Part shown: piece after piece, positions 13,436 to 60,547 of the stretch | Position numbering within the stretch: position 1 is the first letter of the stretch | Layout of the letters: each line of letters starts with the position of its first letter | Assembly: GCA_963810275.1 (NCBI GenBank) | Contig: CAWENF010000021.1 | Location: forward strand, 192,001 to 256,000 | Direction: 5' to 3' | Origin: an uncultured archaeon | GTDB lineage: Archaea > Thermoproteota > Bathyarchaeia > Bathyarchaeales > Bathycorpusculaceae | DNA: 64,000 nucleotides | Position numbers and translations under genes: made by a program | The notes under the pieces: generated by a model | Seen by the model: only the letters and a program-made list of their open reading frames with translations | Told to the model about the DNA's origin: nothing | Databases searched by the model: none

Positions 13436-13532
13436 GGGTTTGCTGAGGCTTCTGCCAAGATTTAAGGAGAAAAAGGAAAGAATGAGAGCAACACTTGCAA
13501 ATAGACAATATAACAGAAGCCCTCTCAGCCCC
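13436..13532 (-). ncRNA. Candidate structured sRNA, copy 1 (BHB-like closing stem, anti-leader loop)
   Basis: Minus strand GGGG-CUGA-GAG-GGCUUCUG...UUUCCUUUUUCUCCUUAAAUCUU..CAGAAGCC-UCAG-CAA-ACCC; homologous copies elsewhere in the window. Confidence 0.65.
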
Positions 13533-13593
13533 AACTTAAAAAAATTAAAAAAAACAAAAAAGGGAGGGAAAAAATTTTTCATAGTTTTTCACC

Positions 13594-16016
13594 TTATGGG
13601 TGCTTTCTTAGAACTAACATCATGACGGCTAAGACTACGATGATTGGAACGATGATTGCTGCTGACATTGGTATGAAGTATTGGTCAGCCATGCTTGGAG
13701 GTTGTGTTGGTTGCGGCGAGGGTGTTGCTGATGTGGGGTCAACTGCGAAAGATGTGACTGCGTGAGATTGCCAGTAAGATTTGCTGCCTGCAAATGATGC
13801 GTAGAGAGTATATTTGCCTTCAATGTCAGGTGTCCAGTTGTATGTGAAGAAGCCATCGGCATCTGCTGTTGTAGTGCCTATAGTTCGATAGTTGCCATTT
13901 GAGTCAACAACACTCAATTCCACTTGTACACCTACCACGTTTGTTGGGCGGGGTCTTTGCATAGAACGTATTGATCCATGCGGTCATGCTTTCGTCAGAT
14001 ACTGCGGGGACACCATTGGAAAACGAGCAGCTTGTATTCCTGAGCAAATACAGCAATGTCCAGTACTGTGCCTTCGATCATTACACTGCTTCCTTGTGTT
14101 GTGACTTTGGGTGAGGCATTAACTGTTATAGCGCTATGTCCTTTTCCGAATGCATATATCTGGTTGTCCATAGCATTGTGTGTTACTAGTAATCCATCTG
14201 CAAGGGCGCCCATGGCATTTCTAAGCCTTGATAAGCACCAGAAATATTCCAGATGCCTTCGCCTGTTGTAGCGTTAATAGCCCACATTTTCATACACGAA
14301 TAAGGGTTGGTCTGGCGAGTGTTCATTGTGTGGAATGTAGATTTTGCCATCTGGAATTATTGAGGCGCCATAGAAAGCCCAAGTACCGTAGGTTGTGTCA
14401 AGCTGAACTTGAGCACAGGCTCAATGCTTTCTGACCTGTAGTCATATTGTATCCAGATACAATCTCTGCAGATCCAGCGATGTAGAATATGTGGCCACAA
14501 AACCCCTCCAACATCAAAGATACCCAGTGGTTTTGTGGACCTTGAAGTGGATATATTTAATTTTATGTTTTTATGTGCAGAATTATCCACTGTTGATCTT
14601 CTCTGAAGGGTAGAGCGTATAACTCTGTGTATAGACTAATGTAACGGATATACGTGCGACAGTATCCGTCAATTTTCATTACCAGAAAAAATTCTTACCT
14701 GCTGTATCCTACGTGTACAAAAGTAGGCAATGGGTCTGTTAGTACTGGAAAAGTTCTGGTAGTGATCGTCACACCTTATTTTTCATCTCACCATTCAATA
14801 TGATCCTGCGCCATTTACTATGTTTGCATCCACTTCCCATTAAATACTATCGTGCTATTGATTGTTTGTCCTTGAAAACGTTCGATCTACGTTCATTATT
14901 TTGCTAACTCCAACATTTGAGGTGAAAATGATCTGGGAAGCGCAATAAGTACTCATCTCTAAATATCCTTTGCGTTATTGATAGTGTAAATTCGTATTTC
15001 GCCTTTTCGCACATTTGAACGTCACCGCTTGAGGCGTTCTAGACTGAAGGAATAATTACCTGTGAATCTATCATCTATCTGCTATGTAGTTTGTTGAATC
15101 ATGGATCAGCCAGACTATAAATTTTTACGCGTTATGGGAAAATGCAACCTAATCGTAGGCTGTTGAAACCGCTCCATAGGAGATGTTTTGATACTATAGA
15201 GATCACCTATACATACATCTACTGCTATTGTACCGTATCTTGGTGGTTCTGCGGTTTCGTAGTAGAGAACACCGTTCATAATGATTGGTGGTCTAAACAT
15301 TGGTTAATAGTTCAAGCCGCCATAGTAAGATTCAGCATAGCCGATAATTCCTCTCACTATTCCTCCTGGCAGCAATTGTTTTGTCCACATTATGTGTGAA
15401 GTGTTAGGTCCTGTAGAGTAGGGATTTGCATTACCGCTGCCTTCATAGGCTACTGCGTCTTTATCGCCTTTACCCATGAGCCAGTTTCCTGCAATAGTGT
15501 ACCATTCCCTATTTTCCGAATTTATTGGTCTTGTCCAATATTCAGTTGGAAACGGTAATTCAGGTGTTATGCCAATAGGTTGCTCTTGAACAGTGATTTC
15601 AATTGTTTTTGATTCTAGTGGTACATACCATCTTGAATAGCCATTTGAGCCCGTTCTGTTTACCCATTGTCCTGGAAAGCTAGCGTGTATTTTGTAAGTT
15701 CCTGTACTATCTGGAGTGAACCCAATGTAAGTACCTCCTTTATATCCGATTTCAATCCGCTGAATGTTTGTGTCTTTCCGTCTGGTTTTTCCACAGTAAC
15801 TTCGACGTTATCCCAAGTTTGTCCGGCAATTGGATTTGGTATTGCAAGCCACCATTGAATGTTTAATTGCTGACCAACACCGACAGGATTTGGAACTGCA
15901 CTGATGAATAATCGTGTTTCGACATCAACAGCCGACACTTGTATTACTGACATCATAGAAGGCAAAATTAGAAGCAAAATGCTCACAAAAATTATTGATA
16001 CTTTTTTGTTTTTCAA
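13594..16016 (-). pseudogene. PQQ-like beta-propeller surface protein, paralogue 2 (heavily fragmented)
   Basis: Signal peptide plus PNPVGVGQ, PIIMNGVLYY, NAMDNQIYAFGKG, C-terminal Ig-like domain plus MADQYFIP-TM-RKHP; many frameshifts between about 14000 and 15700. Confidence 0.75.
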
Positions 16017-16409: not shown

Positions 16410-19045
16410 TTATGGTTTTTTTCTTAGCATCAAGATCATGACTGCGCCGATGACTGCAACGAGGATGAATAAGGCTGCGATTGCTGGTATGAAATATTGA
16501 TCTGCCATAGATTCTGGTTGCTCAGCTTGAGGAGTTGGTGTTGCTGCTGCTTGATCGACGTTAAATGCTGTAACTGCATGCGATGGATAATATGAGCTAC
16601 TTCCTTCAAAGGATGCGTAAATTATGTATTTGCCTTCAATATCAGGCTGCCATGTGAAACTGTAGAATCCATCTGAGTCAGCTGTGGTTGTTCCAATCGT
16701 TCTATAGTTGCCGTTTGCATCTAATACGCTTAAATTGATGTCAACACCTTGCGCATTTGGTTTTTCTGTTTGTTGATAAACGTACTTCATCCAGTCTGCC
16801 ATACTTTCATCAGACACTGCAGGAACGCCGTCGGGGAATCTTAATTGAATTTCTTTTTGAGTACTACCCGGTGAGACGTCTGTAATTGAACCTCTTATTG
16901 TTATCGTGTTAGCAATTGTTATACCACTTGATGGTACGTCAATGTTTATTGCGCTTGGACCTTTACCTATTGCGTATATTTGCATGTCATATGTGTTCAT
17001 AGCTGCAATGATACTATCTCCAATTAGAGGGTATCCACCCCAGTGAGTCCCGCGAATAAGACCATCTGCTCTCCAAACTACATCACCGGTTGTTGCGTTA
17101 AGACAAATCATTGGTGCGTCGACTGGAAGTGAAAGTTCATATCCGGAGTGTTCTGTGTGTATGACATAAATCAGGCCGTTTGCAATGAACATTGGATAAA
17201 GTGGCCATTCTGCGAACGTTGATCCTAACGCTCTTTCATTGATAGCTGTATAATTCCAAAGCAAATTGCCTGTTAAAGTATCGTAGCAATATAGCACACC
17301 TGAATATCCAGCGGTATAATATTTGCCGTCGTAAATTTGATTAACTGCTCTAGCTGATGTTCCTGCAAGACCCATAGTATAGAAGTCTAAGTAACCGTGT
17401 GAATCCGAAGTCCATAAGTGTGCACCTGTTTCAACACTAAATGCATAATCTTGTCGTGTTTCTTTTTCACCAAAAACTATGATCTCATCTTGTGATAGAT
17501 CACTTGTTGCCTGCCATGCAATTGTTACATTACCATCTTTCCAGTCTGATGGTGAATCCCATACCTTGTTGAAAAATAAAGTTCCTGCACGTTGTTCGTC
17601 AATGCTTATTGCCCATAATGTAACACCATTCGCCGATGCAGTTCCACCAAGAATTCGGTCATCAAGAACTGAAAAGACAGATCCAGGTAGACCCGTTGGA
17701 ATAGTTACGTTCCATTCGTATCCTGCATATCCTGTTGGTGTTAGTTCGTTGTCTGCTGGAGTGACAGATGAAATTCCTGTTGCATCAACAACTTTACCTT
17801 CAGGAACCCATTGTTGTAGGTTTGTTGTACCAATTTCTTGTCCTGCCCATAAGTCAGGAATGTTAGTTGAGTTCCAAAGGGTCATGTAGCCTTTTGCTAA
17901 GGTTAGTTGTATAGACAAGCATTTCACCGTTTTCGCCGATAACTTTGTTTCCTGATGGGACATTGTAGATTGAATAGATGTATTCACCCGTGAATGGATC
18001 AAATGCACATAAAGTTGTACCTGCATTGAATGGAAGTCCTAGTGATGTTTTAGTTTCTGCGGTTGCAGTAGCCCATAAGTAAGGATATGTGCCAACAACG
18101 TTAATTGAGTTCCATTGCATCAATTGTCCTTGAGCTAAAGTCAAATTGTTGAGAAAAGTTTTTGTCCAAAGCACTTCACCTGTATGCAAGTTTACAGCTG
18201 TGTATTCATGAATCTTTGATGTAGTTGGATAGTTGTCGTAGTACAAGTTTCCAAGCATTATGACGCTTCTCAAGAATTTGCCTTGATATGCATCTCCAAT
18301 AGTTACTCTGTCTTCTGTTATTGTACTTGTAGTTCCTTTGCTGCCACCAACTAATCCTCCACCTGTAATTGGTCTACTCCAAAGTAGATGGGGTGATTGT
18401 GGTGCGTAATCGTTTCCATATGCTATTCTGTTATAGGTGTTAGCTGTGTTTGATGCCATTAACCAGTTGCCGCCAATGGTTTGCCATGTTTGGTACTGGT
18501 TGTTTATTGGTCTTGACCAGTATTCATTAGGTAAGGGTTGATAAATAGCACCCTGAATTGGTTCAGATTGTACAACTATACTCCACTTTTTCACTAGAAC
18601 TTGCTTGCATTATTGTTCCTTTTGGGAGAGAAGAACCTATGCTAGCGGGATTAGTTTGTTCTGGGAAGAACGATTGTAAAATATATGTTCCTTCCATGTC
18701 CGGTGTAAAACTTGTTGATGTTCCGCCAGTTGAATCAGTTGCAAATGGACCTAAAGTTGTCTCGTGACCGTCTGGGTCTGTGATGACTACTGTAAGTCCT
18801 GTCCAGCTATATTGGTCAGCAGCTAATTGTTGAGTTATACCTAACCGGATAAGAACTTCTTGTCCTACGCCGATGGGGTTTGGTGTTGCCCCAACGAATG
18901 CATAAGTTTTTAACGTGGGTTCAGCGCTGTCTTCACCGTTTATTGTCGGAATAATAGTTGATACTGATAGTACAGATAGCAACGTTATTGTCAGTATAGC
19001 AAATATTTTATTGGTTTTTGACACTTTCATTTTTTCTTGCTCCAT
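16410..19045 (-). CDS. PQQ-like beta-propeller surface protein, paralogue 3 (two frameshifts)
   Basis: PNPIGVGQEV, PLPNEYWSRPI, HLLWSRPITGGGLVGG, NTYDMQIYAIGKGPS, RFPDGVPAVSDESM, MADQYFIP-TM-RKKP. Confidence 0.85.
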
Positions 19046-20408: not shown

Positions 20409-20507
20409 AGGTTTGCTGAGGCTTCTGCTTAAGGAGATTTAAGGAGAAAAATTAATTAAAACAACAGCAAACAACATCATACACATACAAAAACCCTCAT
20501 CAACCCC
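20409..20507 (-). ncRNA. Candidate structured sRNA, copy 3
   Basis: Minus strand GGGG-UUGA-UGAG-GGUUUUUG...UUUUUCUCCUUAAAUCU..CAGAAGCC-UCAG-CAA-ACCU; pairs via G-U only on the minus strand. Confidence 0.6.
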
Positions 20508-37431: not shown

Positions 37432-40072
37432 TTATGGTTTGCGTAGGACGATGATTGTCAACAGACCAACTACTATGATGGCGACTAAGAGGCCAACGAT
37501 AGCTGGGACAAAGTACATGTCAGCCATTGATTCTGTTGGTGCGTTTGTTGGTGCGGGGGTTGCTGCTGATGGGTCAACTGCAAAGGCTGCGGTTGAGACA
37601 GATGGCCAGTAACCGTTAGTGCCTGCGAAGACTGCGGTGACTTTGTACATGCCGGTGATGTCTGGTGTCCATTGTAGGTTGTAGTGGCCGGTTTCGTCAG
37701 TTGTTGCAGAGCCGATTGTGCGGGTGTTTCCGTTGGCGTCTGTGACCATGATTTGCACTTCAACACCAGTGAAGTTTGTTGGGAGTGGCTTTTGTTGGTA
37801 GACATAGCCCATCCAGTCCTTCATGCTGGCATCAGATGCAACTGGTACACCGTTTGCAAACCGGGCTGATTGCTCGTTTTGCTGTGAGCCTGAGGAAATA
37901 TCCATGACGGTTCCGCTGATGACTATTGATTGTCCTTCATGTGAGTGCTGCTTGCGGAGTGTTGACTGTTATTGTGCTTGGACCTCTGCCGACGACATAG
38001 ATTTCGTTAGTCAAGCCGTTAAACCAGGTATTATAACCGTCTGCGATTGCGTAGCTTTGGACCATGAACTCGCCGACATAGCTATTGAGAGTCCATACTT
38101 CTTCGCCGGAGGTTGCGTTGAGTGCGCGGGATAGTGCACCTTTGTAGAGTGGAGTTTCGATTGTGTGTTCTGTTGTGACAGTGTAGATCAAGCCATTTGC
38201 GTAGCCGTTGACGAATGTTGGGTAGTTTCCTGGAACTACAACGCCGCCGTCAGTGCTGTTTCCTGGGCCGCCATTGCCATAAGTCCATAGTAAGTCACGC
38301 AGAGACTGTATCATAGCAGTATACGATGCCTGCGTATCCGCTGCTGTACATGTTACCATAGGCAAACATGTTGCTTAAGCTGGCTGATGCTGGGCTGCCG
38401 TAGTAGTCCATTGCGGTCTTGTGGATAGTGCTAGTTGTAGTCCAAAGCGGCGCCAGTGTTAGGCTGTAACCTATAAAGCAGTTCATTTCACGAACGTTTT
38501 CTACGAATACTCTGTTGACTGGATCAACACCTGCTTCGATTATGGTTGCCCCGGGTCTAAGTTGTCTGGGTTAACTGTGTTTATCCATTGTATTTGTCCG
38601 TATGTTCCAGCGGTCTTGTTAAGACTGACTGCAAAGTACGTGTATGGCTCTTGCGATGGTGTTGCACCGAAGAAGAAGCTGGTGCCTGTTGATGGTAATG
38701 TACCGTTGTAGCATAGCATGACATCGTCGTAATATGCTTCAACTACTGTGAATCTTGATGTCCAGTTTTTGCCTTGGTATGTGATTGGCACTGTCCAGTC
38801 GTATCTGTCGGATGTGCTTGCATCAAGTGCACGAATGTTGAGACCGATTGAGCGGTGTGTCTGTCCATGTCCAGAGGTTGCTAGAGTTCCATTGGCGTAC
38901 TACATAGCCTTGAGGCGTACTTTGTGATACGTAGAATAGGTATTCACCCATTGGTCCCATCGCTGCTCTACCAGATGGACGCCACCGAAGAATCCGCCAG
39001 CTACTTGGGAACGCCAGTTGCGTTGAAGAGGCTTGTGCCTGTATCTGCATCATAGAATTGCCAGTTCGGACCCAGAGCCAAAGAAGCATTGCAGTTGGTA
39101 GACACCGTGCTGGTTGGGGTTTTCGGAATCAAAGACATAGCGTGCGAAAGTGCTGGAATATTATTGCTTCTCCAGTACTCTTCGCCTGTACGTAGGTCAA
39201 CACAGGGACAGGCTTGTTTCGCCTCCAGTGGGTTTAAGGTATGAGACTGGTTCGGTGTAGTATAGTTTGCCGTCAACAATGATTGGGTTCGTGTATCTTT
39301 GTAGATAAGCACTTCCTTCGAAGTATGTGTTACCTGGGTAGTCTTCGAAGTCATTTCCACCTACAACACCGCCTGCCTGAAGTGCTTTAGTCCACATGAT
39401 GTGGCTAGTTTCTGAACCAGCTGCGTTGTCTGGGAATAGTGCGCCGTTACCACCGAAGTTATATGAGCTTTCAAAGCCGAGATAACCTGGGGCACCGTTG
39501 CCTAGCCAGTTAGATGAGATCAAGTACCAGATGCTGTTCTCGCCATAAATTGGGCGGCTCCAGTACTCGGTTGGCAGTGGATATGTGTCGGGTAAGCGAC
39601 CGATTGATTCTTCTTGGACGGTGAAGGTTGTTGTTGCATTGCTACCTAGGAAAACGTCATTGTTATTTTGGTTGGAGCGTGCTGTTTGGTTAATCCACAT
39701 TTCTGGGAATTCGAAGTCAACGGTGTATGTACCAGCCATGTCCGGGGTATAGAGATATGCTTGGTTAGAGGTTGTGTCGAAAACTGTTGACCACTCCTCT
39801 TGAACGGTGTGGTTGTCAGGTTTTGTGATAGTCAATTTGTAGTCGTGTACTCTAAAATCATTATCCAAGTCTGCGCCAGGTGCAGTTCGGTCAATCCACA
39901 TGTAGATGGTGATTTCGTCACCAACGCCAACGTGATTGGGAAGAGCTGCAACGTATGCGAAAGTCTTGTATTCTGTTGCTGCGCTAGCTGTAGGCGTAAG
40001 TACTGATATGCCCATTGAAACGACTAAGAGTGTTGCTAACAAAATAGTCGCGGTTTTACTTTTGGTATTCAA
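37432..40072 (-). CDS. PQQ-like beta-propeller surface protein, paralogue 4 (many frameshifts)
   Basis: Signal peptide, PLPTEYWSRPIYGEN, HIMWTK..GGVVGG, TTEHT, GRGPS, RFANGVPVASDASM, MADMYFVP-TM-RKP. Confidence 0.8.
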
Positions 40073-40075
40073 GAT

Positions 40076-40100
40076 TTTCCTTTTTCTCCTTAAATCTTTA
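40076..40100 (-). promoter_or_regulatory. Leader / Shine-Dalgarno region of paralogue 4, predicted sRNA target
   Basis: mRNA UAAAGAUUUAAGGAGAAAAAGGAAA ending 3 nt before the TTG start; exact complement of the sRNA loops. Confidence 0.65.
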
Positions 40101-40338
40101 AGGGAAAGAGACTAAACATTTACCTTAATAAGCATTTGTGGAGGAAGCAAGTGAATGGTTCACGATGATGTTGAAGAAGAGGCTTTCAGAAGCCAGTTTA
40201 GCTCACTTAGAAGCGATTTTGATGTACATTTTACCGCTAAAAAGTTGTGCACCCTCCTCTTTTATAGCTCGATTTCTTTGTAGTTGAGGAGCAATAAGGC
40301 TTTTATCAAGTAAACCACCATGATTATATTGATAATTT

Positions 40339-40749
40339 ATGCCGTTAGTTAAGGACATAATGACTAAAAACGTGGCAACTATCGAGTCCAGCAAAACCGT
40401 CTACGATGCAGCACAGCTTATGGCTGAAAAAAGTTTAGGCTCCTTAATCGTGGTCATAAAAGGATTCCCCGTAGGAATAATTACTGAAAAAGACATCGTG
40501 AACAGAATAGTGGCTAAACGGGCTGCCGTGGACACTAGACTCTCTGAAGCGATGACTAAAACCTTAATTATAGTTGAACCTGAAACATCGATTAGAGAAG
40601 CAGCAAGAGTTATGTCGGCAAACAAAATCCACCGGTTACCCGTTCTCAAAGAAAACAAGCTCGTGGGGATAGTTGCTGCTTCAGATTTCGTACGCAATGC
40701 CGGCAAAAAAACAACTACAGAAGAAATTCTCGAAGCTCTCGGAGGGTAA
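40339..40749 (+). CDS. CBS-domain pair protein
   Basis: VKDIMTKNV, GIITEKDI, IHRLPV, LVGIV. Confidence 0.9.
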   Translation: MPLVKDIMTKNVATIESSKTVYDAAQLMAEKSLGSLIVVIKGFPVGIITEKDIVNRIVAKRAAVDTRLSEAMTKTLIIVEPETSIREAARVMSANKIHRLPVLKENKLVGIVAASDFVRNAGKKTTTEEILEALGG

Positions 40750-40805
40750 CCATCAGACCTGCAAATTAAAAAAACATTAAATCGCAATTTTGTTTAATAT
40801 AGCTT

Positions 40806-41522
40806 TTATTGGGCGCTATAGTCTTTTTTAAAGCCGGGTTTAAGCGGGTTAAATTGCGCATCTTTTGGGGGCAAAGGCTGCATTTTTAGAGCTTTTTGGG
40901 CGCATTCTTTAGCTTCATCCATCAACCCCAGCTTCGCCAAAGCCACCCCTTTTCCCAGCATAGCGTTAGCATATTCAGGCTTCAATTGCAAAGCAGTCTC
41001 GAAATTTTGAAGCGCTTCTTGGTAATCACCGTTATTTCCGTGCGCTATCCCAATTAAATAGTAAATTTTAGGGTCATCTGGCTTGTTTTTTAAAGCTAAA
41101 TTATAGCACACTACAGCTTGATCGTATTGGTGGAGTTTAGCAAGTGAAAAAGCCAAGGAAAGCTGGATTTCAGTGCTGCTTGGGTCTAGTTGGACGGCTT
41201 TTTTGTCGCAGTTCACGGCTTGCTGATGCTGGTTTATAGTGGCGTAGGTAGCGGCCTTGAGGTGCCAAGCGTTAACCGATAATGGATTGTGTTGGAGGAT
41301 TTTGTCGTAGCACTTGAGGGATTCGTTGCTTTTGCCCAGCCGCCCCAGAATCAATGCTTTAATGAGTAGGGCGTCTTGGTTGTTTTCTTGGAGTTTTAGG
41401 GCTTCGTCCAGGCAGAGAAGGGCGCTTTCAAATTTCTGGGAATCCTTAAAAGCGATGGCCCGTTTGAGCTGTGCCGATGCTTGTAAACTTCTATATGCTT
41501 CATTGATCCCGTCTTGTTCCAT
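40806..41522 (-). CDS. Tetratricopeptide repeat protein
   Basis: Multiple 34-aa TPR repeats. Confidence 0.88.
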   Translation of the reverse strand: MEQDGINEAYRSLQASAQLKRAIAFKDSQKFESALLCLDEALKLQENNQDALLIKALILGRLGKSNESLKCYDKILQHNPLSVNAWHLKAATYATINQHQQAVNCDKKAVQLDPSSTEIQLSLAFSLAKLHQYDQAVVCYNLALKNKPDDPKIYYLIGIAHGNNGDYQEALQNFETALQLKPEYANAMLGKGVALAKLGLMDEAKECAQKALKMQPLPPKDAQFNPLKPGFKKDYSAQ

Positions 41523-42541
41523 GCCGTCAACTCCAGTTTACTTTAGCCTTGCATGTTACAGAATCGAGAAAGCTAATTTATAACTAATGGTTAAACCGAA
41601 TACCAATAAACCGATTTTTGAAACATATAATGCTGAATATGAGTCAGGCTTCATTCCTTTCTTCATACAGCGAGTTTCTGTAGGTAAAAGTTGTTATTAA
41701 AATTCGTAGATTGAAAGCTAATATGCGAAGGAGAGGAATGTTTTGAGCGCTTTGGTTCTGGAACGGGAGCAAATCACTGGGCTCCGCCTTTTCCGAAGGC
41801 TAATTTTAATTAGTTCCTAAATTTGTGGAAAAGGTTCAAATCAGTTTATTTTTAACAAATAGCCTTTTTTTAAACGCCAAAATTTTTAATTTAAAAACAA
41901 GTAAAATTGACGTTGTAAGAGAATATAACAAAGTTTCCAACAGGTTATAGAGAGTATAAGAGCAATACAGGCGGGTACTTTTTCCCTCATATAGAAAAGA
42001 CGCAGACAAACGTCATACATTAAGGTTAACGCTAGGTTATAAAAACTTGCGACTAAATTAAGTTTTAAGTTTTACTATATATTTGTTTGTAGTAACACAA
42101 TAACACCAACATTGCTTCATAACTTTTTGTAAGGTTATATTCTGAAAATAAATCGTTAGCTAGTGATTGCTTCTAATGACTAAGTGCCCTCAATGTGGTT
42201 GCGAGATCAGTGAACCAATAAAAGAACTGACAAATACTCATTTCACTATTAAACAATACAAATGTACAGAATGCAACTTCACTTTTAAAGTTACAAAAGA
42301 ATGGACTTCTTTCAGCAACAATTGACCCTAAACGACTTTACTAATAGCTGACCTAAGTTTGTAAATTATAATTTTATCAGAAACATCCTTCCTTTAAAGG
42401 GTGTAGATATTCCAAAGTACAAGAAAGCTAAGGCTAAAAAGAATATAACTAGTGACAGCAGCACCATTAAACTAGAGCATACCAATGATTCTAACATTCA
42501 ACTAGAAAAGGAAAAATTGAAGCTTAAATTAAGTTTTGAAG

Positions 42542-42616
42542 CGGGTCGTAAGGGATTTGAACCCTTGACTTCCAGCTTAGAAGGCTGGCGCTCTATCCGT
42601 GCTGAGCTAACAACCC
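42542..42616 (-). tRNA. tRNA-Arg(UCU)
   Basis: GGGTTGT/ACGACCC acceptor stem; anticodon arm CCAGC-CTTCTAA-GCTGG; T arm AAGGG-TTCAAAT-CCCTT. Confidence 0.93.
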
Positions 42617-42767
42617 AACAAAGGTGAAGATAAAAATGGGCTTTCATGCTTTAAGCCTTACTATGAAATGAAGCCACATATCGTGCCCAAATGGGCTATA
42701 GTCTTTTTGGTTAAAAGAATAAAAAGTGGAATTAACCCAAAACAAAGTGGAACAGTTGAGGATAACG

Positions 42768-43874
42768 CTAAGTTTTCCAGTCAGGACCCGCTTTCTTCCC
42801 GAACAGCACCTGCACGTGTCCAATTAATATAATTATCATCCAAACTGACGAGTAAAAGAAGTAATACACAACCAATTCATGCAGCTTCATCTCGCGGAAA
42901 CCCAGTTTACGCCCAAACCCATAGAACACACCTGCAGTTAAGCCAAAGCCCGAAAGCGAAATTAACATCACTTTTAAGACGTCTGCGGTTCCCAAGGAAA
43001 TAAGGAAAATTGGCAGGGCAATATTGAATTTGACTGAGAGAAACAGCGAGAAAACCAGCAGAGAGTTGTACATCCACATGCTAGGGACAAGTGCGCTTAG
43101 GAAGAACACAGTAACTGAAGGATACAGGAAAAATAGGCTAGGCAGGAAAACTTGCGGCTTCTTGATGAAACGCTTCATGAGTTGGCGATTCCAGTCTTTG
43201 AGCCAAAGCGCCTGCCCAATCGCCCAACGCCTGCGTTGGGTAAGCCACTTGTGCCAGTCACCATGAACGACGTTTTTAACTTCCACGTCATGAGAGTAGC
43301 TAAAACTTCTATCCTCAAGGAAAGCACGAGTGGCTATGTCAATGTCTTCGGCTACAACCTTTCTAAAACCATGCACCTTCTCAAACGTTTCCCGGTTGAT
43401 GGCAAACGCTGCACCGTTGACTGCGGGGCATTTATGCATGAAACGGCTGGCAATCCACGAGCTAATGTTAAAGGTTAGGTACTCGTAGTAAGCCATTCTG
43501 GAGAGAAAGGAGTTATTTTTTGTAACTCGTTTTTTGATGTCTAACACGTCTGTGTGTTGCATTTCCATAACGATTTTCCTTAGATAATCGCGGTCATCTG
43601 GGATACCTACATCGGAGTCTAAAAAAAGCAGCACCTTACCTGTTGACAAATCCACGGTGTTATTAAGAGCAGTGGATTTTCCAACGCGCTCTTGATTAAC
43701 TATGATGCGTACATCATCGCGTTCAAGCCGCTGGATTTCTCGGATGAAGTCAGCGGTTGGGGCATCAACTGTTACAAATATTTCTTTATCTACATTCTGC
43801 TTGCCCAAAACATCCAGCATCCCCGCTAGCTGGTCAGACTCTTTATAAACGGGAACGAAGATGCTTATGTCCAC
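42768..43874 (-). CDS. Glycosyltransferase family 2, membrane-bound
   Basis: VPVYKE, GKSTALN, FLDSD, AEDID, QRRRW, C-terminal TMs. Confidence 0.9.
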   Translation of the reverse strand: MDISIFVPVYKESDQLAGMLDVLGKQNVDKEIFVTVDAPTADFIREIQRLERDDVRIIVNQERVGKSTALNNTVDLSTGKVLLFLDSDVGIPDDRDYLRKIVMEMQHTDVLDIKKRVTKNNSFLSRMAYYEYLTFNISSWIASRFMHKCPAVNGAAFAINRETFEKVHGFRKVVAEDIDIATRAFLEDRSFSYSHDVEVKNVVHGDWHKWLTQRRRWAIGQALWLKDWNRQLMKRFIKKPQVFLPSLFFLYPSVTVFFLSALVPSMWMYNSLLVFSLFLSVKFNIALPIFLISLGTADVLKVMLISLSGFGLTAGVFYGFGRKLGFREMKLHELVVYYFFYSSVWMIIILIGHVQVLFGKKAGPDWKT

Positions 43875-43994
43875 TTTTTTCTCCTCTCAAGCAAGCAGTA
43901 ACCATTGGAGTATTCACGTATGGCTTTTTAAATTCTTCTGCATTTTATTGCAAAAAAGTCTTCTCGCTAATCATCAAAACGCCAAAATGAAAGT

Positions 43995-44522
43995 TTAAAG
44001 CTCTTCACAGAGGTTTTGTAGTACATTTTTGGAGATTGGGCCTATACGGTAGAGCATTTCGGCTTCGTGTCCGTCACTTCCGAAATCCGCCTCGCTAAAA
44101 AGCATGCTGCGCTCAAGCGGGGCATGAAGCTGATTTGCGAGGGCAGTAAAGTTTCTTTTAGAAGCCTCGTTCGAGGGATTCACTGTGCCCTCAAAGAAAG
44201 TTGCGTTCGAAGAGCATAGCTGGTATAGCAGCAGTCGCCTCTGTAATCCGTTACCCCGGTAATTTTTATGGACGACGGTTTCCCAGTTGAAAAACGTGTC
44301 AGGTCTGCTAGGTGAGAGGTAACCTGAAGAGAAAGCTACAATTTCACCGTCCTTTTCTGCTACGACACAAGTATCGGAGAAGTCCCTTGCCAAGAGGAAG
44401 TAGGTATAGCGGCTGTTTAGCCCAACGTAGGGGCGGTTGGCTATGAGAAGCTTATAAACAGCGGCAATGTCTTCTATGACCACCTTTCTGATAGTAAAGT
44501 CTGCATTGGAGGTTTTTTGCAT
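43995..44522 (-). CDS. GNAT acetyltransferase of EctA (diaminobutyrate acetyltransferase) type
   Basis: LNSRYTYFLLARDFSDTCVVAE, GYLSPSRPDTFF, RGNGL, TVNPSNEAS, HEAEMLYRIGP. Confidence 0.8.
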   Translation of the reverse strand: MQKTSNADFTIRKVVIEDIAAVYKLLIANRPYVGLNSRYTYFLLARDFSDTCVVAEKDGEIVAFSSGYLSPSRPDTFFNWETVVHKNYRGNGLQRRLLLYQLCSSNATFFEGTVNPSNEASKRNFTALANQLHAPLERSMLFSEADFGSDGHEAEMLYRIGPISKNVLQNLCEEL

Positions 44523-45866
44523 TTAAGGTTTCACGTTGGGTTTGCGGCGTTTGATTCGTTGGTTGCCTTCAGGTATGAGCGAGATTGTCTTGCCCGCATT
44601 CGCTAGCAGCTTTTCTACGCCGATGGGGGGTTTGTGGATTTCAAGTGTTAGTTGTAGATGGCATTTGTCGCAGTCTCGATCACATTTAGGGGGCTTGTAA
44701 TTTTCAGGTTCCTGATAGGTAGTTATGACGCCTTCGTAGTTGCGTAGCACTGTCTTGTTAGTTGACCACGAGATTATGTGGTTGGGCATAACTGGAATTT
44801 TTCCTCCGCCGCCAGGAGCGTCAATTACAAAAGTGGGCACTGCAAAGCCGCTGGTGTGCCCCTGCAGACTTTCCAAAATTTCGATGCCTTTCCCTACGGA
44901 GGTGCGGAAGTGTGTGAGTCCTTCAGAGAGGTCACATTGGAACAGGTAGTAGGGGCGGACTCGGTTTTGGACTAGTTTCTGACAGAGTTTTTTCATGATT
45001 TGAGGGCAATCATTTACACCTGCAAGCAATACTGATTGGTTGCCTAAGGGGATACCGGCATCGGCAAGTTTTCGCAGCGCTTCTCGTGCTGAGAGAGTGA
45101 GTTCACGGGGGTGGTTAAAGTGAGTGTTTAACCAAATCGGGTGATGTTTCTTTATTACAGCGACAAGTTCGGGAGTTATACGGTAAGGCAAAACCACGGG
45201 GGTTCGAGTACCGATTCGGATGACTTCAACGTGTGGGATAGCTCGAAGCTCGGTGAGTATCCAGTCAAGGAAACTGTCAGGCACCATCAGGGCATCGCCG
45301 CCGCTTAAGAGCACATCGCGGACTTCAGGGTGATTTTTTATGTAATCAATTCCAGCTCGTATTTGTTCTTTTGAGGGGATATAGTCGTTGTCGCCGACTT
45401 TGCGTTTGCGGGTGCAGTGGCGGCAGTACATAGCACATCGGTTGCTAATTAAGAACAGGACACGGTCGGGATACCGGTGAGTTAACCCTGGAACGGGGCT
45501 GTCTTTGTCTTCGTGCAAGGGGTCAGCCATGTCATGATGGGCTATTTCCAGCTCCATCGGGTTGGGGAACGCTTGTTTGAATATGGGGTCGTTGTGATAG
45601 TCTTCTCGGTCAATCAAGCTGGCATAATAGGGAGTTATATTTAGAGGAAATTTTTCTATAGTTTTTTGAAGTTCCTTTCTTTCCTTTTTTGGGAAGGTTA
45701 TCCCCATGAAGTCTTCGAAGGCTTCGATGGTTCTAATAGAGTTTTTCAGTTGCCAACGGTAATCCATCCATTCAATTACGGAGACAGGGTCTTTGAGCTG
45801 TGACGCATACGATTGGTAACTGAGAGGAAGTTCTGGTTTTTCAACAATCAGGACTGTCATCTCCAC
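44523..45866 (-). CDS. ablA: Lysine 2,3-aminomutase (radical SAM, PLP)
   Basis: [55 protein letters not shown]-terminal Cys cluster. Confidence 0.92.
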
Positions 45867-46031
45867 AGTTAACGGTTTTTTGGTAAGCGTCGTTCTTATA
45901 AGTTTTGGACAAATACGGTTCAGTCACTTGGCAAAGTGGCATAGATGAATTTTTTCCATTTGTCTATTTTTAGAGTGCAGGTAGAGTTTGCAGGTACATT
46001 ATTATTTGCCTCGACAGGCTATATCCAACAT

Positions 46032-47057
46032 ATGAGAAAAGCAAAAGCTATCAGCCTATTCTCAGGTGGACTTGACAGCATACTTGCCACAGAACTTGTA
46101 CGCCGACAAGGCATAGAAGTCATAGCTTTCAACATTAAAACCCCGTTTGGCATACCCAAAAAAGACGGGCAAACAGAGGCACAACAAGCCGCAGAGATCC
46201 TCAAAGTACCCCTTGTTGTACAACGCGTTGACAAAGAATACATAAAAATGCTCCGCAACCCCCGGCATGGCTACGGAAAAAACATCAACCCTTGCATAGA
46301 CTGCAAAATCTTAATCCTAAAACAAGCCAAAAAGTACGCTAAACAAGTCGGCGCAGACTTCATGTTTACGGGTGAAGTATTGGGTGAGCGTCCGATGTCG
46401 CAGCATGGTGCAGCATTAAGAACCATCGAGAAGGAGGCGAGGTTAAAGGGTAAGCTTCTGCGTCCGTTGTCGGCAAAGCTTATGGCTGAAACTGAAGCTG
46501 AAAAACAGTGTTTAATTGACCGCGAAAAGTTGTTGGCGATTGAAGGCAGATCGCGCAAGCCCCAGATGGACCTCGCCAAACAGTTCGGCATAGAGGTTTA
46601 TCCTTCGCCTGCAGGCGGATGCCTCCTGACCTGTGAAGAGTACGCTAAGAAGCTTCGTGACCTCTTCGACCACAAAAAACGAGTCAGCGTGGATGATGTG
46701 GCGTTGCTGAGAGTCGGAAGGCATTTCCGTGTGGACGATAACAAGGTTGTTGTGGGCAGAAACCAAGCTGAAAACATCTACCTGACGGGGCATAGGGGCA
46801 TGGGAGACTTTCTGTTTGAGTTGCCATTTCCAATAATGGGTCCTACAACGCTGCTCCAAGGCCCCAAAAGAAAAACCTCCATAGAAGTTGCTGCTAAACT
46901 TACTGCGTTTTACTCTGACGCTAAAACTTCAGAGGCAACTGTGAAATATGGCAAAGAAGTCATGGACAAAACCATGACAGTTTGGGTTCCCAAGAGGGAT
47001 TACGTGGATAGGCTAAGAGTAGGAGCCGCCGAAGTTAAGCTTGGCAGTAAACCGTGA
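46032..47057 (+). CDS. PP-loop tRNA thiolation-type protein (ThiI/MnmA-like, DUF814-type C-terminus)
   Basis: SGGLDS, NPCIDCK, TGEVLGERPMSQ, PAGGCLLT, GRHFR. Confidence 0.8.
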   Translation: MRKAKAISLFSGGLDSILATELVRRQGIEVIAFNIKTPFGIPKKDGQTEAQQAAEILKVPLVVQRVDKEYIKMLRNPRHGYGKNINPCIDCKILILKQAKKYAKQVGADFMFTGEVLGERPMSQHGAALRTIEKEARLKGKLLRPLSAKLMAETEAEKQCLIDREKLLAIEGRSRKPQMDLAKQFGIEVYPSPAGGCLLTCEEYAKKLRDLFDHKKRVSVDDVALLRVGRHFRVDDNKVVVGRNQAENIYLTGHRGMGDFLFELPFPIMGPTTLLQGPKRKTSIEVAAKLTAFYSDAKTSEATVKYGKEVMDKTMTVWVPKRDYVDRLRVGAAEVKLGSKP

Positions 47058-47123
47058 GCTCCATGTAACTGAACAAAAAACTTATCCCAAGAACGCCACA
47101 TTTAGCTGTTGAGGCAGAAGCCC

Positions 47124-47967
47124 GTGACAATTGAAAGTAACAGAAAACTGGGCGCTATCGGCTCGCTTTTGACGATTATCGGAGCAGTTAGCACCGTACT
47201 AACCGTCATTCAATATTCCAGTTTGTTGACGCCGACTACTATCGATATGGTGCCGAACTTTGCACTTTTAGCCGCCAGCGGGGCAGTATCCATGGTTGCG
47301 TTTCGTCGGGTTCATCCTTTTTCTTATTGCGATGTATGGGTTCTCTAAAGATTATCAGCAACCCAAAATCTTCAATTCCGTACTCTACGGAATCATAATA
47401 ACGATAGTTGCAGCCGTAATTTTAGGCGTAATCTGGTTTGTCTTGACCATAGCTAACATCTTAAGTCTCATACCAACCATTGTTCCCCCAACGCCCACCC
47501 AGATTCCAACAAATCTGATCCAAGAATTGATGACGCCCTACGCAGCCATGTTGATGGCGGGGATGTCGCTGGTTATACTGGTTTGGATAGGCTACTTCTA
47601 CAAAGCCTTCAACTTACTATCTGAAAAGTCTAAGGTGAAGTTTTTCAGTTCAGCTGCAAAAATCTTCGTACTGGGAGCGCTTATAACAGTAGCAGTAAGC
47701 TTCACCTTAGCAATGTTAAGCATCAACGAAACAGTAGATTACACCACAACATTGCTGGCTTCGATTCCCGGAGCCGCCGTGCAGTATTTAGCCTGGGCAC
47801 TCGCAGCTAAAGGCTTTTTTAGCATAAAAGTACCACCTCAGGAGGTTGCCCAAACCAATGCGTCTGTATGGGCTGCTAATCCTGATGTGCGGTACTGCAC
47901 AAATTGTGGAACCCCAAACCAGGCGGACTCCACCTACTGCACCCGATGCGGAAAGAAACTTTCCTGA
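47124..47967 (+). CDS. DUF996-like membrane protein with C-terminal zinc ribbon, frameshifted near 47300
   Basis: KLGAIGSLL, GFILFLIAMYGFS..Y...IF, YCTNCG...YCTRCG. Confidence 0.75.
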
Positions 47968-48017
47968 TAACGGAAAAGTTGAAAATCTAATAGTTCTTTC
48001 TTCTTTAGAGATGGCTG

Positions 48018-49005: not shown

Positions 49006-49453
49006 TTAGGCACCGTTTCTATTTGAGAAATCTTTAACCTATAATAAGGTTTTGGCGTTTCCCGGAAAATTTTTCAAGAAAACGTAAAAAAAAGCTCAGT
49101 AAGCGCATATCTCCGCACAAAGGATACGGAAAAAAACACAGTTGTAAACGAAAAATGCAAAAACCCATTTTTTAGCGACCAAAAAGAGTTCAGGAACGAG
49201 CGATCCAAAATATCTAATGCCGATTCTACTTTTCAGCAAAAAAGTCAGGGCCATTGGTTTTTGGGTGTCACCTTGCGAAGTCTAAACGCAAACCCATCAC
49301 ACCGCCACATGCACAATCAAGCGGTTCCATGCAACATGTAGAAAAAACAGGTCTCCCACACCCACATAACGAATACACAGCAGCTTCAAAAATTTTTCCT
49401 ATCCACCAGAGTTCCGAGTCGCTTCAGCAGCAAAGAATAAACAAAAACCACAA

Positions 49454-50164: not shown

Positions 50165-50235
50165 AACATCAGATTGGACGATATTCGGATATTAAGTTTT
50201 TTAAAAGCGGGTTCTATTAAAGGGGAAGGGAAGGT

Positions 50236-57807: not shown

Positions 57808-57820
57808 CTTGGCGATTTCT

Positions 57821-57969: not shown

Positions 57970-60547
57970 TTATGGTCTTCTCAACAGCAAGATTGTAGCT
58001 GCAAAGCCTACGATGACGACTATGATTAAGCCGACTATTGCAGGTAAGAAGTACACATCTGCTACTGAGTCTACTGGTGTTGGATCTGGAGCCATTGTTG
58101 CGTGTGCTTCTTCAGCGACAAATGTTGTTGATGCAGATGAGCCATAGTATGCTGCGGTTCCTTCAAAGGTTACATACACTTGGTATGTGCCTGGAATGTC
58201 TGGAGTCCATGCTAAGCTATAGTGGCCTGTTGAATCGCTTGTTGTTGTTCCAATAGTTCGGTAGTTTCCGTTTGCATCGATTACTGCGACTGTCACTGGT
58301 ACACCGGTTGCGCTAGTTGGATATTCAAATTGTTTCCAAACGTAGAGCATCCAGTTGCTCATGCTTTCGTCAGAGACTGCGGGGACACCATTGGGGAAGC
58401 GTGCGGTTATTGCGTAGTCAGAGAGGCCTGGTGAAATGTCGTTGACACTGCCTTGTATGATCATTTGGCTGCCGTCAGAAATTGATGTTGTTGGTTGAAC
58501 GACTGTGGTTTGTGATGGGCCTTTGCCTATGCCGTAGACGCGTTGGTCATATGTATCCATGGTTGCAATGATGCTGTCGCCGATAACGCCGTTACCACCC
58601 CAACGAGTGTCACGGAACATACCGTTGACTCTCCAGATTTCTGTGCCGTCTGATGCGTTGATGCAGATTTGTGGTGCGCCTCTTGGTAGAGGTTGCTCAG
58701 CTGAGTGCTCTACAGTGCCGACATAGATTTTTTCGTCAGCAATTAGAGTAATCCAGCCCCACCAGTTCTGGCCTGTAACGGGTTCGTTGTATGGGTCGCT
58801 CATTGTGTATTCCCATGCGGTCTCACCTGTAGCTTGATCGTAGGCATAAACTATGCCGCCTAGACCAACTGAGTAGAGTTTGCCGTATGCGAAGTACCAT
58901 GTGTGCTCTGCGTTACCCCAACCATAAGCGTCGGAGTAGAATTCAGAGTCAGTTTGCCATAGATAGTTTCCAGTTTCAGTGCTGAAGCCGTAGTGTTGTC
59001 TTAGTTCTTTGTCCCAAACTGCAATGACGCCACCTTCGAGTTCGTTTGATGCGCCAGTGTAGTGGATTGTGTTTGAACCATCAAACCATTCTGCAGGTGC
59101 TTTCCATGTTTTGTCGAAGATCTTGCCTATTGTTTGTGTGTTTTCGTTTGTGTTAGTGAATTCAATTGTGTCGAGTGGAATTGCCCATGTGCGAACCATT
59201 GTTTGGTTGTACCATATACCGACGATTCTGTCGCCCTGGTAGATCTTAAAGGTAGGTACACCAAATGAGCTCATTAGCTGTAATCCTTCGGGTAGTGTGA
59301 CGTTCCATGAGTAGGCTCTTGATACTGATCCGTCAAGTACGCGTCCGTGTGCAGAGTTGCCCCAGCTACCATATCCTGAAGCTGCTGGGTTTTGTAGTTG
59401 TAGACCGCAGTCGGTTGAATTCCAAAGTGCCATCCAATCTGTTATCCAGGTTGTATACGTAGATGAGGATTTCGCCGCTTGGACCAAATGTTCTATAAGC
59501 GGTTTGAGCGCCTGGACCATAGCCGCTGGTAGGTACGTTTATGAATTGCATTTGTTGGTTGCCAGTGAATGGATCATATGCTGTATAGGTACTGCCTGAT
59601 ACTGACCAGATGTATGAGAATGTGCCGTCGTAGTTGTAGCTGTTGAAGTAAAGGATTTGACCGAATGAAAGTACTGTATTGTTCTTGTACACCCATTCCT
59701 CGCCAGTGTGCATGTCAACTGCGATGATTGCTGGTGCTTGCTCGCCTCTAGAGTCTGTTCTTTGGTAGTAGAGAATGCCGTTTAGTACGACTGAACCTGG
59801 GAATTTGCCTTCATATGCATCGCCTGTTTCTGCGCTAGCTGGAACACCGTCACCCCAGAGACCGCCCATCATACCGCCTGTGGTCATTTCATTTGCCCAT
59901 AGGACGTGAGCTGTTTCAGGAGCATCGTTGTTGTAGAGTGCTAACGAGTTGTCTGGTCTAGCTACCCAGTTGCCAGAAATAGAGAACCATTCTCTAAGTT
60001 GTGGATCAATTGGGCGACTCCAGTACTCGGAAGGTAGAGCGTGACCAGGATAATCCGGTAAAGGATCTTCCTGAACAACTATCTCTATTACTTCACTGTC
60101 AGCTGCAAGCATGACATCGCCTTCATTTATTCTGTTGCCGCTTTCAGCGTCATTCCAGCTGGAGGTAGCGTTTTGCTGTGGGAAGTGAGATTGTAGCAGG
60201 TATGTTCCTACTTGGTCTGGAACATAGCGGACAAATGAGACACCGGTTGAGTCTGTTCTGATTGGACCCAGCGTTTCTGTGTGGTTGTCTGGATGTGTGA
60301 CTGTAACGGTGACACCTTCCCAACCTAAGAGCACACTGCCCAAAGGTCGTAGGATACCGGCTCTGATTAGCACGTCTTGGCCGACACCCACAGGGTCTGG
60401 GATTGCGTCGATCACTGCATAGTTTTTGTATTCTCTTGCGCTAGCGTTTGGTATTGATTGCAATGCTGCGAATGTTCCTACTACTAAAGCTAATAGAAGT
60501 AGGATTGCAAAAGATTTGTGCTGTATTTTTTTATTAAGAATATTCAT
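57970..60547 (-). CDS. PQQ-like beta-propeller surface protein, paralogue 5 (one frameshift near 59440)
   Basis: PDPVGVGQ, LPSEYWSRPIDPQ, TVEHSAEQP, DTYDQRVYGIGKGPS, RFPNGVPAVSDESM, VADVYFLP-TM-RRP. Confidence 0.88.

What the first reader, a model, noticed from the sequence alone, without database searches (positions are those of the whole stretch)
40076..40100. The sRNA loops are perfectly antisense to the ribosome-binding leader of another surface-protein paralogue
Seen in sequence: the only conserved part of the loop matches the leader of paralogue 4 (start 40072). Copy 1 is complementary over 23/23 nt (13457-13479 vs 40076-40098), copy 4 over 22/22 nt (57838-57859 vs 40079-40100) and copy 3 over 17 nt. 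The match covers the AAGGAG Shine-Dalgarno. Paralogue 4 has no such element downstream, while the paralogues that carry it have diverged leaders with only partial matches (60547: AAGGAGAAAAAAGGAAAG; 16016: GGAGAUUUAAG). Inference: expressing an alternative beta-propeller gene releases an RNA that blocks translation of a default paralogue, giving mutually exclusive or hierarchical surface-protein switching. I do not know of such a system described in archaea.
Basis: partly seen in the sequence, partly recalled or inferred. Interest (0 to 1): 0.9.

Follow-up and report, generated by a model that had tools for sequence, protein, structure and literature searches.

The report
Hairpins mirroring paralogue ribosome-binding leaders
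Downstream of many surface-protein (PQQ-domain) gene copies in these uncultured Bathyarchaeia sits a conserved hairpin whose loop is an inverted mini-copy of the gene family's own ribosome-binding start region, which looks like a built-in antisense cross-regulator, although no transcript has been seen yet.

Summary
Window 13457-13479 is the exact reverse complement of 40076-40098 (23/23), and the 16-mer core occurs 4 times against 0.06 expected.

It belongs to something larger: a hairpin element of about 95-110 nt.
- It has 13 good copies in this genome, is found in 27 of 36 same-genus genomes, and in 2 of 2 genomes of a second genus.
- It matches no Rfam family.
- It usually lies about 55 nt past the stop codon of a PQQ-domain surface-protein paralogue.

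The loops are inverted mini-copies of the family's translation start region: Shine-Dalgarno sequence, spacer, start codon, first codons and a later signal-peptide segment.

Loop and leader change together:
- this genome: AAGATTTAAGGAGAAAAAGGAAA in both;
- G014: TTGACTTAAGGAGAAAAAGAAA in both;
- the second genus: GAAGGTGAAAAAATGAAAAAAC in both.

So the complementarity is maintained and is not chance.

Not shown: that the element is transcribed, on which strand, or that it represses anything. Wobble counts, fold energies and promoter/terminator motifs do not resolve the strand. No RNA contig covered the element.

"Paralogue 4" has at least 8 frame changes in this assembly. In other genomes the loops match several paralogues, not one default gene.

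Best reading, at about 0.45: a gene-strand anti-start-region RNA. It is new, but a variant of known RNA logic.

The parts
13437..13532 (.). Hairpin element copy 1. The AAGGAG-bearing strand is the window + strand; the neighbouring gene is on the - strand.
   Evidence: Covariance model R1 scores 113.2 bits. Arms are GGGTTTGCTGAGGCTTCTG and CAGAAGCCCTCTCAGCCCC.
13457..13479 (.). Loop segment identical, on the opposite strand, to the paralogue-4 leader (23/23)
13555..13568 (-). Conserved box between the gene's stop codon and the hairpin. On the gene strand it reads CCCTCCCTTTTTTG, a T-run that could be the gene's terminator or a TATA-like box.
   Evidence: A T>=5 run at this place is present in 103 of 117 copies across genomes.
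13594..16016 (-). PQQ-domain surface-protein paralogue, fragmented into several ORFs, whose stop lies about 60 nt from copy 1
20410..20507 (.). Hairpin element copy with a decayed 3' arm; it shares 17 nt with the leader
   Evidence: R1 scores 78.6 bits
57822..57912 (.). Hairpin element copy 4, with compensatory changes in the distal stem (GTCTC/GAGAC)
   Evidence: R1 scores 82.7 bits
57838..57859 (.). Loop segment matching the leader at 40079-40100 (22/22)
57970..60547 (-). PQQ-domain paralogue (two overlapping ORFs) that carries copy 4 downstream of its stop
   Evidence: PQQ_2, E 4.3e-14
40076..40100 (-). Leader of paralogue 4: Shine-Dalgarno sequence AAGGAG and flanks. It is the only non-element copy of the 16-mer in the genome.
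   Evidence: It ranks 1 of 2,539 start regions in a duplex scan.
37681..40072 (-). Paralogue 4. The frame from the TTG start at 40072 is open for 291 codons, followed by at least 8 frame changes against the G005 orthologue. An RNA-library contig covers 39500-40080 exactly.
16410..19045 (-). Another paralogue (three ORF pieces) with no element downstream

Best explanation
The elements are a lineage-wide module attached to the 3' side of PQQ-domain surface-protein paralogues. A conserved bulged stem presents a 50-80 nt loop. On the gene's strand, that loop is antisense to the translation start region of members of the same family: Shine-Dalgarno sequence, spacer, start codon, first codons and a later signal-peptide segment.

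The most likely working: the element is transcribed on the gene strand, either by read-through past the gene's T-run or from a start at the hairpin base. The exposed pyrimidine-rich loop (UUUUCUCCUUAAA...) then pairs with the leader and start codon of other paralogue mRNAs and blocks ribosome loading. Making one family member would thus damp translation of others.

Shown: the element family, its structure, its fixed position after paralogue stops, the loop-leader identity, and its co-variation between lineages.

Inferred: transcription, the strand, pairing in vivo, and repression.
For: 1. Structure. Across 106 copies, 91.4% of cells are paired and 12 of 18 pairs show changes on both sides. 0 of 500 shuffles reach this, and slid controls give 36-51% (the alignment is model-fitted).
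2. Spread. The element is in 27 of 36 same-genus genomes, 2 of 2 genomes of genus g16, and 0 of 22 other same-order genomes.
3. Position. 10 of 13 copies here, and at least 78 of 114 testable copies elsewhere, lie a median 55 nt after the stop of a convergent ORF ending in a membrane anchor plus basic tail.
4. Loop content. GGAG is present in 101 of 124 loops. An ATG lies 4-13 nt after it in 90 of 124. The second codon is CAA in 55 of 96. This mirrors the family leader consensus of 80 fetched leaders.
5. No conserved peptide. ORF length runs from 1 to 105 aa, and the stop falls inside the element in 58 of 96.
6. Co-variation.
   - The 8 best loops for the G000 leader are all from G000, at 20-25 nt.
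   - The best loop for the G014 orthologue's leader is G014's own, at 22 nt, with a G014-specific sequence.
   - Loops and leaders of genus g16 share a different 22-mer with a GGTG-type Shine-Dalgarno sequence and an ATG AAA AAA start.
   - Own-genome leaders beat other-genome leaders in 14 of 19 genomes.
7. The loop segment is unpaired in the predicted folds.
8. The paralogue-4 start region is the best duplex partner of 2,539 candidates.
Against: - No RNA contig covered the element in three RNA libraries. These were contigs only, so this is neither presence nor absence.
- Strand tests do not favour the gene strand.
   - G-U-type cells number 97 on the AAGGAG strand and 73 on the gene strand.
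   - Arm-only folds are slightly better on the AAGGAG strand, -23.4 against -22.9 kcal/mol; the gene strand is better in 41 of 124.
   - Whole-element folds are equal, 61 of 124.
- A T>=5 run lies between the gene's stop and the hairpin in 103 of 117 copies. The gene's own transcript may therefore end before the element.
- A T>=5 run follows the hairpin within 40 nt more often on the AAGGAG strand (62 of 117) than on the gene strand (45 of 117).
- Runners-up in the duplex scan are close, -36.4 against -37.6 kcal/mol. The other paralogues of G000 rank only 82 to 2,223.
- The named target looks frameshifted in this assembly.
- Co-variation could also come from gene conversion between homologous short stretches, without any function.
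Confidence: 0.45

Rival explanations
1. The element is an independent small RNA gene on the AAGGAG strand, convergent with the paralogue. Its loop would then be a sense mimic of the family's start region. It could act as a decoy that titrates a factor binding paralogue leaders, such as a repressor protein, the 30S subunit or an antisense RNA. This is the logic by which CsrB-type RNAs mimic binding sites (recalled).
For: - The hairpin is followed on this strand by a T-rich tail, with T>=5 within 40 nt in 62 of 117 copies. That tail is separated from the gene's own T-run, as expected for two convergent units.
- There are slightly more G-U-type pairs on this strand, 97 against 73, and slightly better arm folding.
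- GGAG and ATG are kept at proper spacing.
Against: - No partner factor is known.
- No consistent promoter peak lies upstream on this strand.
- The covariance-model alignment was built on this strand, which biases the G-U counts towards it.
- The stem asymmetry is only 0.5 kcal/mol.
- No conserved ORF is present.
Confidence: 0.27
2. A DNA-level or evolutionary by-product. The hairpin is a repeat linked to paralogue duplication or recombination, for example a site for a DNA-binding protein or a recombination hot spot. Gene conversion keeps the loop similar to the 5' ends, with no RNA function.
For: - Mismatch types are nearly symmetric between the strands.
- The arms are conserved in sequence, not only in pairing.
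- The loops look like 5' ends with different internal deletions.
- Many paralogues nearby are broken, which points to a fast-evolving region.
Against: - The Shine-Dalgarno and ATG part is kept in 90-101 of 124 loops while the rest of the loop is free to vary.
- The retained segments are those most conserved among paralogue 5' ends.
- All 124 copies have the same loop orientation relative to the asymmetric arms, so there is no sign of inversion.
- The scaffold is kept across two genera.
Confidence: 0.18
3. A cis device. The loop acts within the read-through transcript, either by 3'-5' pairing within the same mRNA or by silencing the next gene in a tandem array.
For: - Each paralogue leader shares at least the AAGGAGAAAA-type core with its own element. 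For example, the 60547 leader and copy 4 share 11-12 nt.
- Some elements sit between tandem paralogues, such as C3:15245, which lies 185 nt before the next start.
Against: - In G000 the long matches go to a distant gene, not to the element's own gene or the next one.
- The gene after C3:15245 has no matching leader.
- Many elements are followed by unrelated genes.
Confidence: 0.1

Closest known systems
Methanosarcina mazei sRNA162 (archaeal sRNA acting on a trans-encoded mRNA; PMC3510493, seen as search listing and start of abstract only)
   Same: An archaeal RNA proposed to act on a target mRNA by base pairing. That it masks the ribosome-binding site is recalled; the start of the abstract that I saw does not say it.
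   Different: sRNA162 is a single, experimentally shown sRNA gene. Here there is a multi-copy module tied to the 3' side of members of one gene family. Its loop mirrors that family's own start region, and no transcript has been shown.
icaR mRNA of Staphylococcus aureus: the 3'-UTR pairs with the Shine-Dalgarno region of the 5'-UTR (PMC3868564, title and start of abstract only)
   Same: A sequence placed after a gene's stop codon is complementary to a ribosome-binding region.
   Different: icaR acts within one bacterial mRNA through a short motif. Here the long matches point to other paralogues. They are presented in a conserved hairpin, repeated 7-19 times per genome in most of the genomes that carry it, and co-vary with the targets.
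mRNA-mRNA pairing in Listeria (PMC8722363, title and start of abstract only)
   Same: An untranslated part of one mRNA could regulate another mRNA in trans.
   Different: That is one pair of functionally linked genes in a bacterium, not a family-wide module. The effect there is a coupling of expression (title); its direction, activating, is recalled.
CsrB/RsmZ-type decoy RNAs (recalled, no call)
   Same: Hairpin loops carry Shine-Dalgarno-like GGA motifs that mimic mRNA leaders. This fits the AAGGAG-strand reading.
   Different: Those RNAs carry many short hairpins in one RNA and need the CsrA protein. Here there is one large loop per element, no known protein partner, and the mimicry extends through the start codon into the coding region.
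Repetitive extragenic palindromes and MITE-like repeats (recalled, no call)
   Same: Multi-copy imperfect palindromes in intergenic DNA after genes.
   Different: The element is tied to one gene family at a fixed distance from the stop codon. Its loop content tracks that family's 5' ends. No scattered insertions were seen.

Membership tests
Trans-acting antisense sRNA that masks a ribosome-binding site | Extended complementarity to the Shine-Dalgarno and start region of a target mRNA | tested here: met
   Identity on the opposite strand runs 23-25 nt in G000, 22 nt in G014 and 22 nt in G052. It ranks 1 of 2,539 in the duplex scan.
Trans-acting antisense sRNA that masks a ribosome-binding site | Complementarity kept through evolution (co-variation of regulator and target) | tested here: met
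   Lineage-specific variants are shared by loops and leaders in G000, G014 and genus g16. Own-genome leaders beat other-genome leaders in 14 of 19 genomes. Gene conversion is not excluded.
Trans-acting antisense sRNA that masks a ribosome-binding site | A discrete transcript on the antisense-competent strand | tested here: inconclusive
   Only contigs of RNA libraries were available, and none lay on the element. The strand proxies disagree or are null.
Trans-acting antisense sRNA that masks a ribosome-binding site | Repression of the target's translation | not testable with these tools
   Needs toeprint or reporter assays.
Any described RNA family (Rfam 15) | A match at the family's gathering score | tested here: not met
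   Only two tRNAs were found in the window. On the element, nothing scored better than E 0.78.
Small-peptide gene or leader peptide on the AAGGAG strand | Conserved reading frame and peptide | tested here: not met
   Peptide length runs from 1 to 105 aa (median 13). Only M-Q is shared. The stop falls inside the element in 58 of 96. 27 of 123 have no start codon.
Invertible DNA switch (inverton or shufflon) | Both orientations of the segment between the inverted repeats occur | tested here: not met
   All 124 aligned copies have the AAGGAG side next to the GGGTTTGCTGAGG arm.
MITE or REP-type dispersed repeat | Scattered positions unrelated to a particular gene family | tested here: not met
   10 of 13 copies here, and at least 78 of 114 elsewhere, lie a median 55 nt after a paralogue-type stop codon.
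CsrB-like protein-sequestering decoy | Multiple GGA-loop hairpins and a cognate RNA-binding repressor | not tested
   Each element has one loop. No search for a partner protein was made. The family's features are recalled.

The most novel reading that the evidence does not exclude
A self-referential exclusion circuit for a multigene family in archaea. Each PQQ-domain surface-protein gene carries, just past its terminator, a hairpin RNA module whose loop is an up-to-date antisense copy of the family's own start region. Expression of one member would therefore silence translation of its siblings. The loops would be re-templated from paralogue 5' ends as the family diversifies, which would explain why loop and leader change together in each lineage.
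Probability: 0.3. Interest if true: 0.85.

Novelty: new variant of a known kind. Interest (0 to 1): 0.7.

Why it matters
Soil and peat Bathyarchaeia of this group carry tens of copies of extracellular PQQ-domain proteins. These have been proposed to act on lignin (bioRxiv 10.1101/2024.09.16.613360; passages read, and the paper's text has no occurrence of 'hairpin' or 'repeat'). Nothing is known about how such a family is controlled in these uncultured archaea.

A conserved RNA-like module that mirrors the family's own ribosome-binding region would give the first handle on that control. It would also be a rare case where regulator and target can both be read and seen to co-vary from genomes alone. 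Stranded metatranscriptomes of peat or salt-marsh samples would test it directly.

Searches for prior descriptions found nothing relevant. Subscription journals and supplementary files were not searchable.

Tried and rejected
- RNA evidence. One run search and one laying of three RNA libraries and one DNA run on 39500-59499.
   - No RNA contig lay on element 57822-57912. Contigs cannot show absence, strand or ends, so this is no evidence either way.
   - An RNA-library contig covers 39500-40080 without differences and stops 8 nt before the TTG. Contig ends are not transcript ends.
- Strand by wobble pairs: 97 against 73 of 2,232 cells, on an alignment fitted on one strand. Inconclusive.
- Strand by fold energy of the arms or of the whole element. 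The differences are 0.5 and 0.05 kcal/mol. Inconclusive.
- Promoter-like motif positions, using a motif read off tRNA upstream regions. There is a small peak on the gene strand at -25..-21 (20 hits in 122 sequences) and none on the other strand. This is too weak to decide.
- Transition-asymmetry test between loops and their best own-genome leaders: 28 compatible transitions, 43 incompatible, 154 transversions. The pairs are evidently not true target pairs. Uninformative.
- Loop pairing with the 3' flank: a match of 8 nt or more in 20% of copies, 18% with flanks of other genomes, and 2.5% with the 5' flank. This reflects composition and is not specific.
- Small-ORF reading: rejected.
- Inversion switch: rejected.
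- Silencing of the next gene in cis: rejected for G000.
- The integron attC idea was considered from memory and dropped, because the neighbours are one gene family. It was not tested.
- Whether the paralogue-4 frameshifts are assembly errors could not be checked. The laid stretch began at 39500, and all frame changes lie below 39215.
- The own-versus-other genome test used only 1-24 leaders per genome, a part of each family.

Full report
**The observation**

Window 13457-13479 on the + strand reads AAGATTTAAGGAGAAAAAGGAAA. Window 40076-40098 is its exact reverse complement.
- The copy at 57838-57859 matches 40079-40100 over 22 nt. The copy at 20435-20451 shares 17 nt.
- The 16-mer core occurs four times in the window against 0.06 expected; 0 of 100 shuffles reach 4.
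- In the whole genome (2.26 Mb, 28 contigs) the exact 16-mer occurs ten times. Nine are inside hairpin elements. The tenth is the leader of the ORF that starts with TTG at 40072.
- The 12-mer TTAAGGAGAAAA occurs 16 times: 14 in elements, once in that leader and once elsewhere.

**What the element is**

The three + strand sites lie in copies of one structured element. Its arms are GGGTTTGCTGAGG plus a variable distal stem on one side and CTCAGCCCC on the other. Each arm carries a 3-nt bulge. The loop is 50-80 nt.

A covariance model built from 13 copies gave these results:
- In this genome it finds the 13 copies, two decayed ones and, weakly (25 bits), the paralogue-4 leader.
- It finds matches in 27 of 36 other genomes of the genus and in 2 of 2 genomes of a second genus in another family.
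- It finds none in 22 further genomes of the order.
- There are 7-19 copies per genome in most of the genomes that carry it.

On 106 copies:
- 91.4% of cells form standard pairs.
- 12 of 18 pairs show changes on both sides.
- No shuffle of 500 reaches the observed values, and slid partners give 36-51%. The alignment is fitted to the model, which favours the structure.

Rfam has no family for it.

Titles of named relatives call the organisms Candidatus Bathyarchaeota or Bathyarchaeia MAGs; several isolate labels point to peat, fen, bog and palsa.

**Where it sits**

In 10 of 13 copies here, a large ORF on the opposite strand ends 147-157 nt from the element's start, which is about 55 nt past its end. 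That ORF finishes with a hydrophobic anchor and a basic tail.

Across 124 copies from 30 genomes:
- 114 had flanks long enough to test.
- At least 78 show the same arrangement, with a median of 55 nt.
- 36 failed my crude criteria, some through a wrong choice of frame.

The ORFs match Pfam PQQ_2 (E 4e-10 to 4e-14). They belong to a family with 2-37 matches per genome in 35 of 41 genomes searched. This appears to be the family of 'membrane-associated PQQ-domain proteins' reported as expanded in Bathy-6 Bathyarchaeia. I read passages of bioRxiv 10.1101/2024.09.16.613360. The paper's text has no occurrence of 'hairpin' or 'repeat', and its supplements were not seen.

Between the stop codon and the hairpin, the gene strand carries a run of five or more T in 103 of 117 copies. 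The run ends about 25 nt before the hairpin.

**What the loop is**

I fetched 80 paralogue 5' ends from 18 genomes and added 24 from this one. Their consensus is AAATTTAAGGAGAAAAGAAAA ATG CAA ATT GCT AAA ... GCT ATT GCG, that is, a Shine-Dalgarno leader followed by a signal peptide beginning M-Q-I.

Read on the strand opposite to the neighbouring gene, the loops carry the same string:
- GGAG is present in 101 of 124.
- An ATG lies 4-13 nt later in 90 of 124.
- CAA is the second codon in 55 of 96.
- Pieces such as TTGCTAAA and GCTATTGC often follow, after an internal deletion.

Exact shared stretches of 20-28 nt occur between loops and leaders both within and across genomes.

No peptide is conserved. 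Length runs from 1 to 105 aa, only M-Q is shared, and the stop lies inside the element in 58 of 96. What is conserved is therefore a nucleotide image of the start region, not a gene.

A second loop type mirrors the paralogue-4 kind of 5' end. It carries the GACTTAAGGAG-type leader, TTG AAT ACC, and a later CCGCGAC, ATCGCAACT or AGCAACACT segment. It is seen in G000, G014 and G005.

**Co-variation**

- G000. The leader at 40072 and nine loops share the derived form AAGATTTAAGGAGAAAAAGGAAA. The eight best-matching loops of all 124 are G000's own, at 20-25 nt.
- G014. The orthologue's leader reads TTGACTTAAGGAGAAAAAGAAA. Its best loop is G014's own, at 22 of 22, followed by a CCGCGAC segment that also occurs further into that gene.
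- G005 and G033. Their orthologues have no such long own match among the loops I held.
- Genus g16. Both loops and the leaders of six verified family members (blastp E 1e-75 to 1e-94) carry GAAGGTGAAAAAATGAAAAAAC. This is a different Shine-Dalgarno variant, spacer and first codons. The loops add a TGCTACT segment found later in those genes.
- Own-genome leaders match loops better than equal-sized draws of foreign leaders in 14 of 19 genomes. In 5 of these, at most 5% of 1,000 draws reach the observed value. The sampling of leaders was partial and the genomes are related.

It cannot separate selection for pairing from gene conversion.

**Specificity**

A duplex scan of the copy-1 loop, read on the gene strand, against 2,539 candidate start regions gave these results:
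- The 40072 leader ranks first, at -37.6 kcal/mol. The set has mean -17.4 and sd 5.0.
- The next candidates reach -36.4 and -35.4, because a pyrimidine-rich loop pairs with any purine-rich stretch.
- The other paralogues rank 82 to 2,223.

The short core also precedes unrelated genes in other genomes. Of 15 non-element hits in five genomes:
- five precede paralogue-like N-termini;
- one precedes another secreted protein;
- two precede unrelated genes, including a NifH-like one;
- seven are not leaders.

**What is not shown**

The transcribed strand is open.
- G-U-type cells number 97 on the AAGGAG strand and 73 on the gene strand.
- Arm-only folds differ by 0.5 kcal/mol in favour of the AAGGAG strand. 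Whole elements do not differ.
- The gene-strand T-run may end the gene's transcript before the hairpin. Alternatively it may act as a TATA-like box about 30 nt before the hairpin base.
- In many species a CTTAAAAAG-like motif, resembling the tRNA promoters of this genome, lies 21-25 nt before the hairpin base on the gene strand. It reached my strict pattern in only 20 hits over 122 sequences.
- On the other strand a T-rich tail follows the hairpin: 62 of 117 copies, against 45 of 117 on the gene strand.
- RNA-library contigs did not lie on the element.

They did cover 39500-40080 without a difference. Paralogue 4 is therefore probably transcribed in a salt-marsh sample, but the contig end says little about the true 5' end.

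Paralogue 4 is open for only 291 codons. It shows at least 8 frame changes against the 79%-identical G005 orthologue. It is either a pseudogene or poorly assembled. The orthologues in G014 and G005 also lack a downstream element, but so do about half of all paralogues.

**Verdict**

It is a lineage-wide hairpin module after PQQ-domain paralogues, with a loop that is an inverted, co-varying image of the family's translation start region.

| Reading | Confidence |
|---|---|
| Gene-strand anti-start-region RNA that damps translation of sibling paralogues | about 0.45 |
| Sense-strand mimic or decoy RNA | about 0.27 |
| DNA-level by-product kept alike by gene conversion | about 0.18 |
| Cis action | about 0.10 |

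The logic (antisense masking, 3'-side regulators) is known from M. mazei sRNA162, icaR and other cases (listings only). The family-wide, self-mirroring arrangement has no description that my searches found.

Noticed in passing
window 12941-13366 (-), 19972-20244 (+); also G000 C17 near 107248: Small winged-helix proteins (Pfam HTH_45, E about 1e-10) lie next to three element copies. They may be regulators linked to the paralogue loci.
   Followed up: partly
window 13594-16016, 16410-19045, 57970-60547, 37681-40072: All four PQQ-domain paralogues in the window are split into several ORFs, while paralogues on other contigs (C3, C14, C17, C19) are open for about 890-900 aa. This is either local pseudogenisation or assembly trouble in repeated genes.
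   Followed up: partly
G000 contig C23 5165-7964 versus window 57814-60547: A near-identical second copy of copy 4 plus its paralogue, with an identical leader and N-terminus, sits on a short contig. It may be a recent duplication or a strain variant.
   Followed up: no
window 50174-50667: Exact RNA-library contigs from three runs cover a stretch holding a 51-aa ORF that looks ribbon-helix-helix-like by eye (no family search) and a 99-aa ORF on the - strand. This is the most consistently covered spot of the 20 kb laid.
   Followed up: partly
G000 C2 165319-165771 (L001): Two elements lie in tandem 365 nt apart. The outer one is followed by what looks like the remnant of a deleted paralogue 3' end.
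   Followed up: no
3' flank of elements in most genus members (e.g. L043, L016, L018): A strongly conserved stretch, TCTCCATTGCTTTTTAAGACTAAAAAAGGGGAAAG, lies between the hairpin and the gene's stop. Its pyrimidine part is complementary to the loop's GGAGAAAAG, but without own-copy specificity.
   Followed up: partly
window 57869: The DNA run X1 has a contig with 2 letters left out inside the loop of copy 4, so the loop varies between strains.
   Followed up: no
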